From the IMG/VR virus record IMGVR_UViG_2541047795_000004: DNA of 44,950 nucleotides, one strand, 5' to 3'. The notes beneath the pieces were generated by a model. The model saw nothing but the letters and a program-made list of their open reading frames with translations, was not told the DNA's origin and made no database searches. The position numbers and the translations under genes were made by a program. Positions 6,672 through 11,285 of this stretch are shown here, one piece after another. The stretch is from a virus (taxonomy: Duplodnaviria; Heunggongvirae; Uroviricota; Caudoviricetes). Positions within the stretch are counted from its first letter, which is position 1; each line of letters begins with the position of its first letter.

Positions 6672-7160
6672 ATGTTGGATGTATTTACTCCATTGTTGAA
6701 ACTTTTTGCTAACGAGCCACTCGAAAGACTTATGTATACGATTATCATTTTTGGTCTCACTCTCTGGCTGATACCGAAAGAGTTTACTGTCGCATTCAAT
6801 GCTTATACTGAAATACCTTGGCTCTTTCAGATTATCGTTTTTGCCTTTTCTTTCGTGGTCGCCATTTCCTTCTCAAGATTGCGAGCACATATTCAAAAGC
6901 ATTATTCATTACTACCAGAGCAACGAGTATTGCTTCGTTTATCTGAGAAAGAAATCGCTGTATTTAAAGATTTCCTTAAAACAGGAAATCTTATTATCAC
7001 TTCTCCTTGCCGTAACCCGGTTATGAAAAAATTAGAACGGAAGGGCATCATTCAACATCAGAGTGATAGCGCAAACTGTTCTTATTATCTCGTCACCGAA
7101 AAATACTCCCATTTTATGAAGTTATTCTGGAACAGCAGGAGTAGACGTTTTAATCGTTAG
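6672..7160 (+). CDS. sieB: Superinfection exclusion protein B, 162 aa, membrane protein
   Basis: Sequence from MLDVFTPLLKLFANEPLERLMYTIIIFGLTLWLIPKEF with hydrophobic helices; the ORF-track N-terminal extension from 6549 is probably not translated. Confidence 0.85.
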   Translation: MLDVFTPLLKLFANEPLERLMYTIIIFGLTLWLIPKEFTVAFNAYTEIPWLFQIIVFAFSFVVAISFSRLRAHIQKHYSLLPEQRVLLRLSEKEIAVFKDFLKTGNLIITSPCRNPVMKKLERKGIIQHQSDSANCSYYLVTEKYSHFMKLFWNSRSRRFNR

Positions 7161-7312
7161 CTTACTGTGTGCTTCTCCAACCATCGGCGCGCACCAGTTT
7201 CGGTTTTAAATGTTTTGCTTTTGGTATACGTCATGGCAGTGAACGTTCCATCCTGGTTGGGGAACACGCCGCACACCAGGGATTCGTTGTTGCCGAGGTC
7301 GATTTTTTGCAT
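7157..7312 (-). CDS. ydaF: YdaF-like small protein, 51 aa (hand-translated)
   Basis: Minus-strand ORF MQKIDLGNNESLVCGVFPNQDGTFTAMTYTKSKTFKTETGARRWLEKHTVS; converges on the sieB end. Confidence 0.5.
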   Translation of the reverse strand: MQKIDLGNNESLVCGVFPNQDGTFTAMTYTKSKTFKTETGARRWLEKHTVS

Positions 7313-7322
7313 TTTGCGAATC

Positions 7323-7457
7323 TCACATCTTGTTGCTACGTATAGCGACTTCTGCCTGCCAGAGATCCCAGTCGTTGCTGCGTAAAGCCTGCACAGCCTG
7401 GTTGTAAGTGATACCGCAACAATCCATCAAATACTGAACTACTTCGTAATGCACCAT
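7323..7457 (-). CDS. ydaG: YdaG-like small protein, 44 aa (hand-translated)
   Basis: Minus-strand ORF MVHYEVVQYLMDCCGITYNQAVQALRSNDWDLWQAEVAIRSNKM between racR and ydaF. Confidence 0.5.
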   Translation of the reverse strand: MVHYEVVQYLMDCCGITYNQAVQALRSNDWDLWQAEVAIRSNKM

Positions 7458-7744
7458 CTTATCTATCCCCTTAACGCCGGGTGGCGGAACTAACTGCTGC
7501 ACTGCAAAATTTGAATCCCGCCGTCATGTTCATACGCCTCGGGCTGGCTACTTAACCCCTGACCACTGCCTGGTAACTCGAAGTATTGCCCGGCGTTCTG
7601 TGGGGCGGGGTGGGTTGGTAGGTATATAATGTACTTTGTGTTCATCATTGTAAAGTACTTTAAGTACATTTTATGTATAAAAAAATGAGACGGGATAAAG
7701 TGAAGCACAAACCCGGAGGGGGACGCTACCGGATTTATGCTGGT

Positions 7745-8164
7745 TTAAGAGGCTTTTTGTTTTTTCTTTCGTGCTAACTCTTCGTAAATTGCATTGTACT
7801 TCTGTTTTTTCTCCTCAAGAGTTTTTAAAAGTTCATCTGTCTCACTGTCAGGGAGCTCGTCCAGAAGGTCAATGATGATTTTTTGTCTTGGATTTAACTC
7901 CTGATAGAAACGTATCTGTCCACTTTCTTCTGTATCCTCTCCCAAAAGATAGGTTGGTGTTGTTCCAATGAGTGTTGCTAATTCCCTTAATTTCTCTCGG
8001 CGAGGAATTGTTTCACCATTAAACCATTTGCTAACCGCTTTTGGTGTTAATTTCATTCGACGGGCAATTTCTGCCTGCCTTCCATGTTGTTCATAACCAG
8101 CGTTTTCACAGGCTAGCGCAAGCCTACTGGCGAACTCTTTACGCGCTTTATCTTCATGAACCAT
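7745..8164 (-). CDS. racR: Prophage repressor (RacR-like, HTH XRE-type, no LexA-like peptidase domain evident)
   Basis: N-terminal helix-turn-helix (QAEIARRMKLTPKAVSKWFNGETIP); divergent from a Cro-like gene; C-terminal part is acidic and Lys-rich with no S24 peptidase motifs. Confidence 0.75.
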   Translation of the reverse strand: MVHEDKARKEFASRLALACENAGYEQHGRQAEIARRMKLTPKAVSKWFNGETIPRREKLRELATLIGTTPTYLLGEDTEESGQIRFYQELNPRQKIIIDLLDELPDSETDELLKTLEEKKQKYNAIYEELARKKKQKAS

Positions 8165-8243
8165 AAGTTCAATGATATTCGCTCTTGAATGTACTGTCAG
8201 TTCTGTTATAGCATGTACTCAAAGTTCACATTGTGAGGATGAT
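8165..8243. promoter_or_regulatory. Divergent promoter/operator region between the repressor and the Cro-like gene
   Basis: 79-bp intergenic interval between divergent starts; contains repeated ATGTACT motifs (GAATGTACTGTCAG and GCATGTACTCAAAG). Confidence 0.4.
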
Positions 8244-8498
8244 ATGAACCAGAAAACACTTGAAGATGTAATCAAAACTGTTCGCGTTTCTGTTGTGGCC
8301 GACGTTTGTGGTGTCAGCCAAAGAGCAATCTACAAATGGATGGATAACGGAAAATTGCCTCGCACAGAATATACCGGCGAAACAAATTACGCTGAAAAAA
8401 TCGCTCATGCATCAAACGGATTATTTTCTGCCGATGCAATTTTAACTATTGGCAGAAATAAAACTACTACGAAAAAGCTGATGGGAGTTGATTCATGA
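8244..8498 (+). CDS. ydaS: Cro-like HTH regulator (YdaS-like); start uncertain (ORF open from 8172)
   Basis: HTH motif VADVCGVSQRAIYKWMDNGKLP; ATG at 8244 has a GAGGA Shine-Dalgarno, whereas the ATG at 8172 would leave only 8 nt to the divergent repressor start. Confidence 0.6.
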   Translation: MNQKTLEDVIKTVRVSVVADVCGVSQRAIYKWMDNGKLPRTEYTGETNYAEKIAHASNGLFSADAILTIGRNKTTTKKLMGVDS

Positions 8499-8917
8499 AA
8501 ATCAAGCATGAGCACATCGAATCAGTGTTGTTAGCCCTGGCAGCCGAAAAAGGGCAGGCGTGGGTCGCTAACGCAATTACTGAAGAATATCTGCACCAGG
8601 GGGGCGGCGAATTGCCCCTGGTACCAGGCAAGGACTGGAACAATCAGCAGAATATCTATCATCGTTGGTTGAAAGGTGAAACGAATGCGCAAAGGGAAAA
8701 AATTCAGAAACTGATCCCTGCGGTTCTGGCAATTCTTCCTCGCGAGCTGCGTCACCGACTCTGCATCTTCGATACCCTGGAACGCCGTGCATTACTGGCG
8801 GCACAGGATGCACTGAGTACGGCAATTGATGCGCATGATGATGCAGTCCAGGCCGTTTACCGTAAAGCACATTTCAGCGGCGGCGGTTCTCCTAGCGATT
8901 CTGTCGTAGTGCATTGA
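8495..8917 (+). CDS. ydaT: YdaT-like protein, 140 aa (possible CII-like regulator or toxin)
   Basis: 140-aa ORF overlapping the Cro-like stop; size and position match YdaT as recalled. Confidence 0.6.
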   Translation: MKIKHEHIESVLLALAAEKGQAWVANAITEEYLHQGGGELPLVPGKDWNNQQNIYHRWLKGETNAQREKIQKLIPAVLAILPRELRHRLCIFDTLERRALLAAQDALSTAIDAHDDAVQAVYRKAHFSGGGSPSDSVVVH

Positions 8918-8961
8918 TTGAAATTAATCGTACCGAACTGTTTTGTTCGGTATCAGTTAAA

Positions 8962-8982
8962 TGTAACGCTGCGAGCGTTACA
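8962..8982. repeat. 21-bp palindrome TGTAACGC-N5-GCGTTACA, copy 1
   Basis: Perfect 8-5-8 inverted repeat read directly from the sequence, just upstream of the replication gene start. Confidence 0.7.
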
Positions 8983-9153
8983 AGGTGAAAACAAATGGCT
9001 TCAAACTGGATAAAGCTCGAAGTTATTACGCCGGATAAGCCGGAAATATTCAGGCTTGCTGAGATTCTGAATATTGATCCAGATGCCGCATTAGGGAAAG
9101 TCATTCGCTTCTGGGCATGGGCGGATCAACAAATGATAGACGGTAACGCAGAG

Positions 9154-9174
9154 TGTAACGCTCGAGGCGTTACA
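9154..9174. repeat. 21-bp palindrome TGTAACGC-N5-GCGTTACA, copy 2
   Basis: Perfect 8-5-8 inverted repeat inside the replication gene; a GGTAACGC half-site lies at 9142-9149. Confidence 0.7.
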
Positions 9175-9361
9175 AAAAGTGCAATAGACCGTATCACTTT
9201 TATGGCTGGTTTTGCTGATGCGTTAATTCAGGTTGGATGGCTGGTCGAAAGTGATGGAGTGCTTTCACTACCAAACTTTGAGCGTCATAACGGAAAAAGC
9301 TCGAAAAAAACGGGCGGTTACAAACGAGAGAGTTACAAAAATACGCGAACTGAAGCGAAAA

Positions 9362-9382
9362 GGTAACGCTGCCAGCGTTACA
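9362..9382. repeat. 21-bp palindrome GTAACGC-N7-GCGTTAC, copy 3
   Basis: Same half-sites as copies 1 and 2; further GTTACAAA and GCGTTACC half-sites nearby (9317-9340, 9398-9406). Confidence 0.65.
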
Positions 9383-9790
9383 CAAACGGATCAAAAAGCG
9401 TTACCAGAGGAAGAGGAAGAGGAAGATATAAATACTGATCTCCCCCTAAATCCCCCTCGGCAAAAACGAGCGTCTAAACAATTCGAGCCGGAGGCCATTG
9501 CTCTGCCCGACTGGTTGCCAGAAACACTCTGGAATGAGTGGGTCCAGTTCAGGCAGGCATTGCGAAAACCGATTCGAACGGAGCAGGGCGCTAACGGGGC
9601 GATACGGGAACTGGAAAAATTCCGCCAGCAGGGTTTTACCCCTGAGCAGGTGATTCGACACAGCATCGCCAATGAATACCAGGGCTTGTTCGCGCCGAAA
9701 AGTGTTCGGCCTGAGACGTTGCTCCGACAGGTTAACACTGTCTCGTTTCCGGACAGTGCGATCCCGCCAGGCTTCAGGGGGTAACTGACC

Positions 9791-10537
9791 ATGAAAAATA
9801 TTGCGACAGGCGGCGTTCTGGAACGTATCCGCAGACTGGCCCCGCCACATGTAACCGCGCCATTCAGGACGGTGGCGGAGTGGCGCGAGTGGCAACTTGC
9901 AGAAGGCCAGAAACGTTGCGAGGAGATCAATCGCCAGAATCGTCAGTTGCGGGTGGAAAAAATTCTGAATCGCTCCGGCATCCAGCCGTTGCACCGCAAA
10001 TGCTCGTTTTCGAATTACCAGGTGCAGAACGACGGCCAGCGATACGCGTTGAGCCAGGCGAAATCCATCGCCGATGAACTGATGGTCGGGTGTACAAATT
10101 TTGCGTTTAGCGGAAAACCTGGTACCGGAAAAAACCATCTGGCGGCGGCTATCGGGAATCGCCTGCTGAAAAACGGTCAGACAGTGATTGTGGTTACCGT
10201 GGCTGATGTTATGAGTGCTCTACACGCCAGCTATGACGACGGGCAATCAGGCGAAAAATTTTTGCGGGAACTGTGCGAAGTGGATCTGCTGGTTCTTGAT
10301 GAAATTGGCATTCAGCGCGAGACAAAAAACGAGCAGGTGGTACTGCACCAGATTGTTGATCGCCGGACAGCGTCGATCCGCAGCGTGGGGATGCTGACAA
10401 ACCTGAACTATGAGGCCATGAAAACATTGCTCGGCGAGAGGATTATGGATCGGATGACCATGAACGGCGGGCGATGGGTGAATTTTAACTGGGAGAGCTG
10501 GCGCCCGAATGTTGGTCAGCCAGGAATTGAGAAGTAA
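9791..10537 (+). CDS. ydaV: DnaC-like helicase loader (IstB-like AAA+ ATPase, YdaV-like)
   Basis: Walker A SGKPGTGKNHLAAAIG and Walker B DLLVLDEIG; directly follows the initiator-like gene. Confidence 0.85.
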   Translation: MKNIATGGVLERIRRLAPPHVTAPFRTVAEWREWQLAEGQKRCEEINRQNRQLRVEKILNRSGIQPLHRKCSFSNYQVQNDGQRYALSQAKSIADELMVGCTNFAFSGKPGTGKNHLAAAIGNRLLKNGQTVIVVTVADVMSALHASYDDGQSGEKFLRELCEVDLLVLDEIGIQRETKNEQVVLHQIVDRRTASIRSVGMLTNLNYEAMKTLLGERIMDRMTMNGGRWVNFNWESWRPNVGQPGIEK

Positions 10538-10559
10538 TTTTTACCGGGAGGAAATTTTA

Positions 10560-11285
10560 ATGGAGACCGTTTTTGACGCACTGAAAGCAATGGGAAAAGC
10601 CTCTTCCCAGGAAGTGGCAGCACGTCTGGGAATGACCCGGGATGAGGCGATTAACGAGCTGTGGAAACTGAAGCGTCGTGGGGAAGCTGATAACAAGGGC
10701 CCGATGTGGTGGTTGACTCAAACCGACGAAAACGCATCTGTAGCACAGGCTTCTAAAGTGACAGCGCAAATGCTGATCGAGGCGATTGAACAGCATGGCC
10801 CTAAAGCGGCTGATGAACTTGCACTGATATTCAGAATTACTTCCCGCAGGGTGAACTCATCGCTGGCTATGGCCATCAGCAAAGGTCGTCTGATTCGCGT
10901 AAATCAGAACGGTAAATTTCGTTACTGCCTGCCGGACGGTAATTTACCAGCAGAGCCGAAAGTTGTATCGGTAGTGAAAACACCTGGTAAAGGCTTTCCT
11001 CAGCCAGCCGGTGTTGCGTTACCAGTACAGGAAGCGGCAACACAGGAAGAAATTAAAACAGATACTGTGGGGGACATTGTGCAGTCACTACCATCGTTCA
11101 CTGAAACGCGAGCCAATGACCTGATTATACCATCGCTGCAAATGGCAAACCGCGAACTGCGCCGGGCGAAAAGTTATGTCCAGAAGTGGGAGCGAGTCTG
11201 CGCCGCGCTGCGTGAGCTGAACAAGCACCAGGATATTGTCCGTCAGATTGTCGATTCCTCCAGTCGTATTGTGTCGGAAAAGTGA
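10560..11285 (+). CDS. Hypothetical phage protein, 241 aa, probable winged-helix N-terminus
   Basis: ATG at 10560 with a GGGAGG Shine-Dalgarno; the ORF-track upstream extension from 10509 overlaps the preceding gene. Confidence 0.6.
   Translation: METVFDALKAMGKASSQEVAARLGMTRDEAINELWKLKRRGEADNKGPMWWLTQTDENASVAQASKVTAQMLIEAIEQHGPKAADELALIFRITSRRVNSSLAMAISKGRLIRVNQNGKFRYCLPDGNLPAEPKVVSVVKTPGKGFPQPAGVALPVQEAATQEEIKTDTVGDIVQSLPSFTETRANDLIIPSLQMANRELRRAKSYVQKWERVCAALRELNKHQDIVRQIVDSSSRIVSEK

What the first reader, a model, noticed from the sequence alone, without database searches (positions are those of the whole stretch)
8962..9382. Three spaced 21-bp palindromes (GTAACGC-N-GCGTTAC) spanning the replication initiator gene
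Perfect inverted repeats at 8962-8982, 9154-9174 and 9362-9382 share the half-site GTAACGC, with extra half-sites at 9142-9149, 9317-9340 and 9398-9406. The roughly 200-bp spacing and location over the initiator gene suggest initiator binding sites (an origin embedded in its own gene, as in lambda ori within O) or operators for a dimeric regulator. They are not explained by coding constraints alone.
Basis: seen in the sequence. Interest (0 to 1): 0.55.

Follow-up and report, generated by a model that had tools for sequence, protein, structure and literature searches.

The report
Phage replication origin inside initiator gene
The three palindromes are most likely binding sites for the prophage's own replication initiator, forming a replication origin inside the initiator gene as in phage lambda, but for a large, uncharacterised initiator family that keeps the same 19-bp site across bacterial phyla.

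Summary
GTAACGC-N5-GCGTTAC occurs three times in the window (0 expected), only at 8963-8981, 9155-9173 and 9363-9381. Nine of the 14 GTAACGC half-sites lie within 442 bp.

The gene is a Rac-like prophage initiator. It is frameshifted here by one extra A and is an intact 262-aa protein in relatives. It combines an N-terminal winged-helix domain with no Pfam model and a YdaU-type C-terminal domain, and a DnaC-like loader gene follows.

Homologues occur in Proteobacteria, Planctomycetota, Verrucomicrobiota and Acidobacteriota. They carry the same 19-bp dyad in two clusters, about +148 and +330 to +420 from the start codon. The arms are invariant and the spacers vary. Synonymous codon positions in the arms are fixed. 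The second cluster is read in two reading frames.

Lineages with a different dyad (GTCACGC, GTTGCGC, GTCCGC) changed both clusters together. A conserved polypurine tract follows the second cluster.

In an unbiased viral scan, 100 of 120 stretches with the exact dyad encode this domain, against 0 of 120 for a control palindrome. YdaT has its own, different boxes in the window.

Best reading: an initiator-bound origin of the lambda type in a new family. Binding and origin firing have not been tested.

The parts
8962..8982 (.). Dyad 1 (TGTAACGC-TGCGA-GCGTTACA). It is intergenic, 13 bp upstream of the initiator ATG and directly before the Shine-Dalgarno AAGGTG. It is a lineage-specific third site.
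   Evidence: Present at -32 in Rac-like relatives. Similar upstream dyads at -42 to -45 occur in other enterobacterial members but not all. Absent from most of the family.
9142..9149 (+). Extra forward half-site GGTAACGC, 12 bp before dyad 2. It was created by a 12-bp (4-codon, 'ECNA') insertion specific to the Rac-like lineage.
9154..9174 (.). Dyad 2, the family-wide cluster 1 site. It encodes C-N-A-R-G-V-T in a low-confidence loop (residues about 47-60) of the winged-helix domain.
9317..9337 (-). Two GTTACA partial half-sites (9317-9322 and 9332-9337). They are weak, not conserved in most relatives, and possibly chance.
9362..9382 (.). Dyad 3, the centre of the family-wide cluster 2, in the DNA that encodes the inter-domain linker. 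This is the proposed core initiator-binding site of the origin.
   Evidence: It is read as GNAASVT here but as VTPTAL in TL-2011b, i.e. in another frame.
9397..9405 (-). Terminal reverse half-site AGCGTTACC, which abuts the polypurine tract. It is universal in the family, whatever the half-site sequence.
9406..9440 (+). 21-nt polypurine tract AGAGGAAGAGGAAGAGGAAGA (9406-9426), then the A/T-rich TATAAATACTGATC with a GATC. This is the proposed DNA-unwinding region.
   Evidence: The tract is conserved in distant clades, read in three ways, and uses only AGA for Arg.
9441..9457 (+). TCCCCCTAAATCCCCCT, the first element of the segment shared with K-12 Rac ydaU. It is the likely junction of the N-domain-plus-repeat module and the C-terminal module.
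8995..9784 (+). Replication initiator gene, a pseudogene here because of an extra A in run 9304-9310. The N-terminal winged-helix domain (aa 1 to about 115) has no Pfam model. The C-terminal domain is YdaU-type with a DnaT-like tail.
9791..10537 (+). ydaV, a DnaC/IstB-like AAA+ helicase loader. It is the presumed partner of the initiator's C-terminal domain.

Best explanation
The palindromes are dyad-symmetric binding sites for the winged-helix N-terminal domain of the prophage's own replication initiator, probably one dimer per 19-bp dyad. Together they form the phage replication origin, embedded in the initiator gene.

The proposed core origin is cluster 2 (dyad 9362-9382 plus half-site 9398-9404), in the DNA that codes for the inter-domain linker. 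It abuts a polypurine/A-rich tract (9406-9440) that is proposed to melt.

Cluster 1 (9142-9174), about 200 bp upstream, is a conserved auxiliary site. The intergenic dyad (8962-8982) is a lineage-specific third site. It may help build a looped or wrapped initiator-DNA complex, or act as a roadblock or autoregulatory site.

After opening, the C-terminal domain (YdaU-type with a DnaT-like tail) and the DnaC-like YdaV would load host DnaB.

What is shown: the sites are under DNA-level selection, are specific to this gene family, and co-evolve with it. What is inferred: the initiator is the binder, replication starts here, the tract melts, and helicase is loaded as described.

In this window the initiator is frameshifted, so the origin is probably silent unless the protein is supplied in trans.
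For: 1. Significance and locality. There are 3 dyads against 0 expected, and 9 of 14 half-sites lie in 442 bp.

2. Linkage to the initiator N-domain.
- In 52 of 57 protein-selected loci of the main clade, both clusters match TAACGC-N5-GCGTTA with at most 1 mismatch. These loci come from Gamma- and Betaproteobacteria, Planctomycetota, Verrucomicrobiota and Acidobacteriota.
- The half-site histogram shows two sharp peaks, at +120 to +210 and +330 to +420.

3. DNA-level constraint.
- Arms carry about 2 bits per position and spacers 0.3-0.9.
- In cluster 1 the synonymous choices are fixed: GGT 50/51 (background 25%), GCT 46/51 (22%), GTT 50/52 (31%). The third position of the centre codon is free.
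- Cluster 2 is read in two frames, 42 against 10 loci.
- One dyad is non-coding.

4. Co-variation. Lineages with GTTGCGC, GTCACG(C), GTCCGC or GTCAC(A) dyads carry the same variant in both clusters, with the same 19-bp geometry.

5. Unbiased test.
- 100 of 120 IMG/VR stretches with the exact dyad encode the N-domain, with the dyad at the expected offsets.
- The GTCACGC variant gives 41 of 120 and a control palindrome 0 of 120.

6. Only the initiator gene is common to all 68 loci within +/-1.5 kb. Annotated neighbours differ between phages.

7. Module swap. K-12 Rac YdaU shares only the C-terminal half (78% identity). It has a DUF1376 N-domain and different repeats (TGTTCAAACA) at the same place.

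9. Origin-like layout.
- A conserved 20-30-nt polypurine tract follows the last half-site. All 90 Arg codons in it are AGA, against 6% elsewhere.
- Lambda's iterons lie at +348 to +432 of O and are followed by an A/purine-rich tract, the same relative position.
Against: - No binding or replication experiment is available. No paper in the searchable library describes this origin.
- Full dyads are about 200 bp apart rather than in a tight tandem array as in lambda. Spacing between clusters varies (198-231 bp) without clear helical phasing.
- The initiator shows no detectable homology to lambda O or DUF1376, so the analogy is architectural only.
- The tract is GA-rich rather than strongly AT-rich. 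GC is about 40%.
- The initiator is a pseudogene in this window.
- Only +/-1.5 kb was examined for other co-occurring genes.
Confidence: 0.75

Rival explanations
1. The sites bind the initiator but serve only autoregulation: an operator or transcriptional roadblock that limits initiator synthesis. The replication origin would lie elsewhere.
For: Dyad 1 sits right next to the ribosome-binding site. Upstream dyads recur in several enterobacterial lineages. From general knowledge, Rep dimers of iteron plasmids bind inverted repeats at their own promoters for autorepression.
Against: No sigma-70-like promoter is predicted anywhere in 8400-9600, so there is no obvious promoter to operate on. The family-wide sites are intragenic, and the upstream one is absent from most members. 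The conserved polypurine tract directly abutting cluster 2 and the positional match to lambda ori are not explained by autoregulation.
Confidence: 0.1
2. The palindromes are operators of another prophage regulator: YdaT/CII-like, the CI-like repressor, Cro-like, or DUF1627/DUF977 proteins.
For: They are palindromic, as expected for dimeric HTH proteins. Half-site centres are 12 bp apart, as in the YdaT box (PMC9986795, PMC11879457).
Against: Canonical YdaT boxes (TGATT-N6-AATCA) are present separately at 8489-8504, over the ydaT ATG exactly as in K-12 Rac, and at 8915-8930; their sequence is unrelated. There is no GTAACGC in the repressor/cro intergenic region. The dyads occur in phages whose neighbours are methylases, KilAC, RuvC and others, with no ydaT. 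No other gene is shared by all loci.
Confidence: 0.03
3. The palindromes act as nucleic-acid hairpins rather than protein sites. Examples are mRNA stability or processing elements, or, for dyad 1, part of a leftward oop-like antisense RNA ending at the minus-strand terminator-like hairpin 8952-8931.
For: Each dyad folds stably as a single strand (z -3.4 to -4.8). A terminator-like hairpin with a T-run lies on the minus strand just upstream of dyad 1. Arm changes between clades preserve pairing.
Against: Arm sequence, not just pairing, is invariant across phyla, and the copies within one genome are identical. Clusters contain direct-repeat half-sites at 11-12 bp spacing that cannot pair as simple hairpins. 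There is no Rfam match and no promoter is predicted for a leftward RNA.
Confidence: 0.05
4. The palindromes arise by chance or as a by-product of a conserved peptide motif (GNAxSVT).
For: Dyad 2 encodes a conserved peptide in frame.
Against: None are expected by chance. One dyad is non-coding. Synonymous positions are fixed only in the arms. Cluster 2 is read in two frames. The peptide changes to follow the DNA variant: GCAPSAT with GTTGCGC and GHA..VT with GTCACGC.
Confidence: 0.01

Closest known systems
Phage lambda ori within gene O (and other lambdoid O-type origins)
   Same: The origin lies inside the initiator gene, in the DNA coding for the linker between the N-terminal DNA-binding domain and the C-terminal recruitment domain. 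The repeats are about 19 bp with internal dyad symmetry and a 5-bp centre (lambda TCCCTC-N5-GAGGGA). An A/purine-rich tract follows. Both sit at nearly the same offset from the ATG: lambda +348 to +432, here +330 to +420.
   Different: There is no detectable protein homology to O and no PF04492 hit. Each cluster has one full dyad flanked by half-sites, rather than four tandem iterons. A second conserved cluster lies about 200 bp upstream inside the DNA-binding-domain coding region. The tract is GA-polypurine. The partner is a DnaC-like loader or a DnaT-like domain rather than lambda P.
E. coli K-12 Rac prophage replication module (oriJ; YdaU DUF1376 + YdaV)
   Same: Same prophage type and gene order. 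The C-terminal half of the initiator is 78% identical and YdaV is the same loader. Repeats lie in the linker-coding DNA, followed by an A-rich tract and C5-7TAAATC5-7.
   Different: The N-terminal domain is unrelated (DUF1376 against an unannotated winged helix). The repeats are different (TGTTCAAACA-type). This is a swap of the specificity module. That oriJ maps to these K-12 repeats rests on my own recollection and inference, not on a result obtained here.
Winged-helix Rep initiators of iteron plasmids (RepE, pi, RepA)
   Same: A winged-helix origin-binding domain. Repeated cognate sites lie next to an unwinding region. An inverted repeat lies next to the start of the rep gene, like dyad 1. 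The plasmid properties are from general knowledge.
   Different: No sequence relationship was found. The sites here are dyads inside the ORF, not direct 17-22-bp iterons upstream. The family is essentially absent from plasmids, with 2 phage-like records in PLSDB.
Annotated 'replication initiation protein / primosomal protein I' of epsilon15, TL-2011b, Xanthomonas CP2 and similar phages (phrog_2509, phrog_9474)
   Same: Same N-terminal domain family and the same two-cluster dyad architecture.
   Different: Those proteins carry a DnaT DNA-binding domain (PF17948) at the C-terminus. The window's protein has the YdaU-type C-terminus with only a DnaT-like 19-aa tail. The epsilon15 clade uses GTCCGC dyads, with cluster 1 at +54 to +115. 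No origin feature is annotated in the epsilon15 record.

Membership tests
Lambda-type origin embedded in the initiator gene | Initiator-binding repeats lie inside the initiator ORF, in the linker-coding DNA between the DNA-binding and recruitment domains. | tested here: met
   Cluster 2 lies at +330 to +420, between the conserved N-domain (aa 1-115) and the variable C-domains. Lambda's iterons lie at +348 to +432.
Lambda-type origin embedded in the initiator gene | Repeats of about 19 bp with internal dyad symmetry, present in several copies. | tested here: met
   Three copies of GTAACGC-N5-GCGTTAC in the window. Two or more per genome across the family.
Lambda-type origin embedded in the initiator gene | A tight tandem array of four or so full iterons at about two-turn spacing. 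| tested here: not met
   Full dyads are 192-208 bp apart here and 198-231 bp apart in the family. Within a cluster there is one dyad plus flanking half-sites at 11-12 bp spacing.
Lambda-type origin embedded in the initiator gene | An A/T-rich, strand-asymmetric region immediately next to the repeats. | tested here: met
   A 21-nt polypurine tract at 9406-9426, then TATAAATA. AT skew is +0.4 to +0.7 and GC is about 40%. The tract is conserved family-wide.
Lambda-type origin embedded in the initiator gene | The initiator is homologous to lambda O (Pfam Phage_rep_O N-terminal domain). | tested here: not met
   No Pfam hit even at E up to 5. BLASTP E = 0.47. hhalign probability 0.1%.
Lambda-type origin embedded in the initiator gene | The initiator binds the repeats and replication starts there. 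| not testable with these tools
   This needs EMSA or footprinting, and origin mapping.
YdaT (CII-like) operator | The inverted repeat T/ATGATT-N6-AATCAA (PMC9986795, PMC11879457). | tested here: not met
   The dyads are GTAACGC-N5-GCGTTAC. True YdaT boxes lie elsewhere in the window, at 8489-8504 and 8915-8930.
YdaT (CII-like) operator | Co-occurrence with a ydaT gene. | tested here: not met
   The dyads are present in TL-2011b, the Klebsiella phage (ST11-OXA245phi3.2), CP2 and VW-6S, where no ydaT is annotated beside the initiator. No second gene is shared by all 68 loci.
K-12 Rac YdaU (DUF1376) / oriJ module | A DUF1376 N-terminal domain and its TGTTCAAACA-type repeats. | tested here: not met
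   Only the C-terminal 124 aa align. DUF1376 hits K-12 YdaU but not this protein. The repeats differ.
Winged-helix N-domain initiator family (phrog_2509/9474; no Pfam model) | Homology of the N-terminal ~115 aa. | tested here: met
   phrog_2509 E = 3e-89. tblastn hits in 61 phage records. Profile search gives 11,566 cluster representatives at E <= 1e-3 and 4,043 at E <= 1e-30.
Winged-helix N-domain initiator family (phrog_2509/9474; no Pfam model) | Two intragenic clusters of a 19-bp dyad, plus a polypurine tract after cluster 2. | tested here: met
   Window sites at 9142-9174 and 9362-9404, and the tract at 9406-9426. Matches the family pattern.
Winged-helix N-domain initiator family (phrog_2509/9474; no Pfam model) | A DnaT DNA-binding domain (PF17948) at the C-terminus, as in most members. 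| tested here: not met
   No PF17948 hit for the window-type protein. Only the last 19 aa resemble the DnaT tail (E = 0.004).
Iteron-plasmid Rep | A winged-helix fold in the origin-binding domain. | tested here: inconclusive

The most novel reading that the evidence does not exclude
This is a previously undescribed initiator-origin system that spans bacterial phyla (about 11,500 protein clusters at 50% identity). Its features would be:
- A winged-helix domain with no Pfam model recognises a 19-bp dyad written twice into its own coding sequence.
- As a result, part of the protein (the GNAxSVT loop and the linker) is dictated by the protein's own binding site and changes in step with it.
- The origin is bipartite, with two half-site clusters about 200 bp apart that are probably looped, and it ends in a hard-wired GA polypurine tract.
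- In most members the initiator is fused to a DnaT-like domain. This suggests helicase loading at a duplex origin by borrowing the replication-restart primosome.
Probability: 0.5. Interest if true: 0.6.

Novelty: new member of a known kind. Interest (0 to 1): 0.48.

Why it matters
If confirmed, this gives a sequence-level origin prediction (dyad clusters plus polypurine tract) for thousands of temperate phages and prophages from at least four phyla. It also defines an unannotated origin-binding domain family.

It is an unusually clear case of a protein whose coding sequence is shaped by its own DNA target. The specificity switches (GTAACGC, GTCACGC, GTTGCGC, GTCCGC) offer natural experiments on how an initiator and its origin co-evolve.

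For E. coli genomics, it marks which Rac-like prophages keep an intact replication module and which do not. This window's copy does not.

Tried and rejected
- YdaT as the binder. Rejected: canonical YdaT boxes are found elsewhere in the window (papers read).
- Repressor or Cro operators. There is no GTAACGC in 8165-8243.
- DnaA boxes. None lie near the locus, and the window total is at chance level.
- Known RNA families. No credible Rfam hit in 7000-11000.
- Promoter overlapping dyad 1. None is predicted.
- Homology of the N-domain to lambda O or to DUF1376. None. No solved relative by sequence.
- Plasmid replicon role. Only 2 PLSDB records, and the one inspected in detail (Pusillimonas, 41 kb) carries lambdoid phage genes.
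- Literature searches for oriJ, ydaU, GTAACGC and iterons found no description of this origin. The 'oriJ' whole-word search mostly matched an author name.
- The first homologous-protein search returned only short fragments. An alignment query was needed.
- The afdb50 fold library was unavailable.
- A search for specificity-determining residues between the GTAACGC and GTCACGC classes pointed to the basic segment after residue 103 (T/V/H against A/K/Q). This is confounded by phylogeny and is only suggestive.
- Helical phasing between the two clusters shows no clear pattern.

Full report
**Observation**

The three sites exist as described.
- 8962-8982 is TGTAACGC-TGCGA-GCGTTACA.
- 9154-9174 is TGTAACGC-TCGAG-GCGTTACA.
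- 9362-9382 is GGTAACGC-TGCCA-GCGTTACA. The perfect dyad is 9363-9381.

GTAACGC-N5-GCGTTAC occurs exactly three times in the 44,950-bp window, against none in 100 shuffles. The half-site GTAACGC occurs 14 times against 3.45 expected, and nine copies lie in 8963-9404. The extra half-sites at 9142-9149 and 9398-9404 are real. The two GTTACA at 9317-9337 are weaker.

**Context**

The window is a Rac-like E. coli prophage. The gene order is:
- recE, racC, kilR, sieB
- a CI-like HTH repressor (7745-8164, minus strand)
- a Cro-like HTH gene
- ydaT (8495-8917)
- the initiator (8995-9784)
- ydaV, a DnaC/IstB-like loader (9791-10537)
- DUF1627, DUF977 and Q genes

RefSeq flags the initiator gene as frameshifted. 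Alignment to strain KE55 shows a single extra A in the run 9304-9310. The intact product is 262 aa. Among 82 close relatives, 79 have A6, and ORFs of 260-265 aa are the norm.

Dyad 1 is intergenic. Dyad 2 encodes residues 54-60 (CNARGVT). Dyad 3 encodes GNAASVT in the linker.

**The dyads are not YdaT or repressor operators**

Two YdaT homologues have been footprinted on T/ATGATT-N6-AATCAA (PMC9986795, PMC11879457). The window has that box exactly over the ydaT start codon (8489-8504, TGATTCATGAAAATCA, as in K-12 Rac) and a near-match at 8915-8930. So YdaT has its own, unrelated sites. No GTAACGC lies in the repressor/cro intergenic region.

**Module swap with K-12 Rac**

K-12 YdaU shares only its C-terminal 124 aa (78% identity) with this protein. 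Its N-terminal domain is DUF1376. The linker-coding DNA of K-12 ydaU carries different repeats (TGTTCAAACA and relatives). As in the window, these are followed by an A-rich stretch and C5-7TAAATC5-7. The N-domain and the repeats therefore change together, while the C-domain and YdaV stay the same.

**The family**

The N-terminal ~115 aa define a large family.
- 61 phage records contain it, including TL-2011b, Klebsiella, Xanthomonas CP2, Pseudomonas VW-6S, Vibrio and epsilon15 phages.
- 65 loci in GTDB species representatives contain it. They come from Gamma- and Betaproteobacteria, Planctomycetota, Verrucomicrobiota, Acidobacteriota and Latescibacterota.
- A profile search found 11,566 representatives of 50%-identity clusters at E <= 1e-3, and 4,043 at E <= 1e-30.
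- No Pfam model hits the domain.

C-terminal domains vary. Most members carry a DnaT DNA-binding domain (PF17948). The window's type has the YdaU C-terminus with only a DnaT-like tail.

**Conserved architecture**

Among loci selected by protein alone, 52 of 57 in the main clade have TAACGC-N5-GCGTTA, with at most 1 mismatch in 12 arm positions, at both about +149 and +347 to +385. Half-sites pile up in two peaks, +120 to +210 and +330 to +420, over a near-empty background.

Cluster 2 typically reads forward, forward, reverse, reverse at 11-12 bp spacing. It ends in ...CGTTACC immediately followed by a polypurine tract, with consensus AGAGAAGAGAAGAGAAGAGAAGA.

In the window the tract is AGAGGAAGAGGAAGAGGAAGA (9406-9426). 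It is followed by TATAAATACTGATC.

**DNA-level selection**

- Arms carry about 2 bits per position, and spacers 0.3-0.9.
- In cluster 1 the synonymous choices are fixed. GGT is used in 50 of 51 cases (background 25%), GCT in 46 of 51 (22%), AGC in 42 of 52 sequences at that codon (AGC is 28% of Ser codons in the background), and GTT in 50 of 52 (31%). The third position of the central codon varies freely.
- Cluster 2 is translated in two frames, 42 against 10 loci. For example, TL-2011b reads GTA ACG (V T), while the window reads GGT AAC GCT (G N A).
- The polypurine tract is read as REEKRRE, EKRREEK or EEEEEE. All 90 of its Arg codons are AGA, against 6% AGA elsewhere in the same genes.

**Co-variation**

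Lineages with other dyads keep the 19-bp geometry and use the same variant in both clusters:
- GTTGCGC..GCGCAAC in L116
- GTCACG(C)..(G)CGTGAC in L143 and L146
- GTCCGC..GCGGAC in the epsilon15 clade
- GTCAC..GTGAC in the Vibrio phage

The encoded loop follows the DNA: GNAxSVT becomes GCAPSAT or GHAxxVT. Identical copies within a genome, together with clade-specific switches, fit recognition by one co-evolving protein. They do not fit independent hairpins.

**Unbiased tests**

- Scanning IMG/VR for the exact dyad returned 120 stretches. Of these, 100 encode the N-domain, with the dyad at +148/160, +337 to +441 or -32 to -44. Several of the remaining 20 have the dyad within about 120 bp of an end of the stretch.
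- The GTCACGC variant gave 41 of 120 in the family, at the same offsets.
- A control palindrome (GATACGC-N5-GCGTATC) gave 0 of 120.
- Within +/-1.5 kb, the initiator is the only gene common to all 68 diverse loci. Annotated neighbours differ widely.

**The binder**

Residues that separate the GTAACGC and GTCACGC classes fall mainly in the basic segment after residue 103. This is suggestive only, because class and phylogeny are confounded.

**Comparison with lambda**

Lambda's four iterons (TCCCTC-N5-GAGGGA) lie at +348 to +432 of gene O. An A/purine-rich tract follows them. This is the same relative position and logic as cluster 2 plus its tract here.

The proteins are not detectably related. 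This family also has features lambda lacks:
- a conserved second cluster about 200 bp upstream
- an extra dyad just 5' of the gene in some enterobacterial lineages
- a GA polypurine tract rather than a plain A/T-rich one

No DnaA boxes are nearby.

**Conclusion**

The palindromes are best explained as binding sites for the prophage's own initiator, forming an origin embedded in its gene. This is a new member of the classical lambda-type design, in a large uncharacterised family.

- Shown: the sites are significant, under DNA-level constraint, specific to the gene family, and co-vary with it.
- Inferred: the initiator binds them, the polypurine/A-rich tract melts, the clusters loop together, and DnaB is loaded through the C-terminal domain and YdaV.

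In this window the initiator is a pseudogene, so the origin is probably inactive. I found no paper describing this origin in the searchable library. That is not proof that none exists.

Noticed in passing
window 9304-9310: The initiator gene is frameshifted by one extra A (A7 instead of A6). RefSeq marks it 'frameshifted'. Among 82 close relatives, 79 have A6. The replication module of this prophage copy is therefore probably defective.
   Followed up: yes
window 8489-8504, 8915-8930, 1505-1520, 10891-10906: YdaT-box-like inverted repeats (TGATT-N6-AATCA) are enriched: 11 hits with at most 1 mismatch against 2.7 expected. One lies exactly over the ydaT ATG as in K-12 Rac, and one at the ydaT stop. 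Exact matches also lie at 1505-1520 and inside the DUF1627 gene. These may be further YdaT targets.
   Followed up: partly
window 8931-8952 (minus strand): A terminator-like hairpin with a T-run lies on the minus strand, between ydaT and the initiator. Together with dyad 1 it could end a leftward, oop-like antisense RNA covering the initiator's ribosome-binding site. No promoter was predicted and there is no Rfam match.
   Followed up: partly
window 9441-9457; L003 5631-5649: The motif C5-7TAAATC5-7 marks the start of the segment shared between this initiator and K-12 Rac ydaU. It is the likely recombination junction of the specificity module and the recruitment module.
   Followed up: partly
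L003 5472-5590 (K-12 Rac ydaU): K-12 ydaU carries its own array of TGTTCAAACA-type direct and inverted repeats in the linker-coding DNA, followed by an A-rich tract. These are candidate iterons of the K-12 Rac origin (oriJ).
   Followed up: partly
L009 +54 to +115 (epsilon15) and L147-L154: In the epsilon15 clade, cluster 1 has moved to codons about 18-38. It holds five or six GTCCGC/GCGGAC half-sites at 11-12 bp spacing. The position of the auxiliary cluster is therefore not fixed in the family.
   Followed up: partly
L275 (Pusillimonas sp. T7-7 'plasmid' NC_015459.1), L276 (E. coli pE16EC1016-8): These are the only two PLSDB records with this N-domain. The 41-kb circular Pusillimonas record carries lambdoid phage genes (CII, NinB, Rha, loader), which suggests an episomal phage rather than a true plasmid. 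The 52-kb E. coli record shows a Mu transposase domain protein, HTH genes and an IS1 element around the initiator.
   Followed up: partly
intact initiator aa 244-262 (window about 9725-9784): The last 19 residues (..PDSAIPPGFRG) match the extreme C-terminus of E. coli DnaT (NCBIfam NF002770, E = 0.004). The same tail is present in K-12 YdaU. This may mimic a DnaT interaction motif.
   Followed up: no
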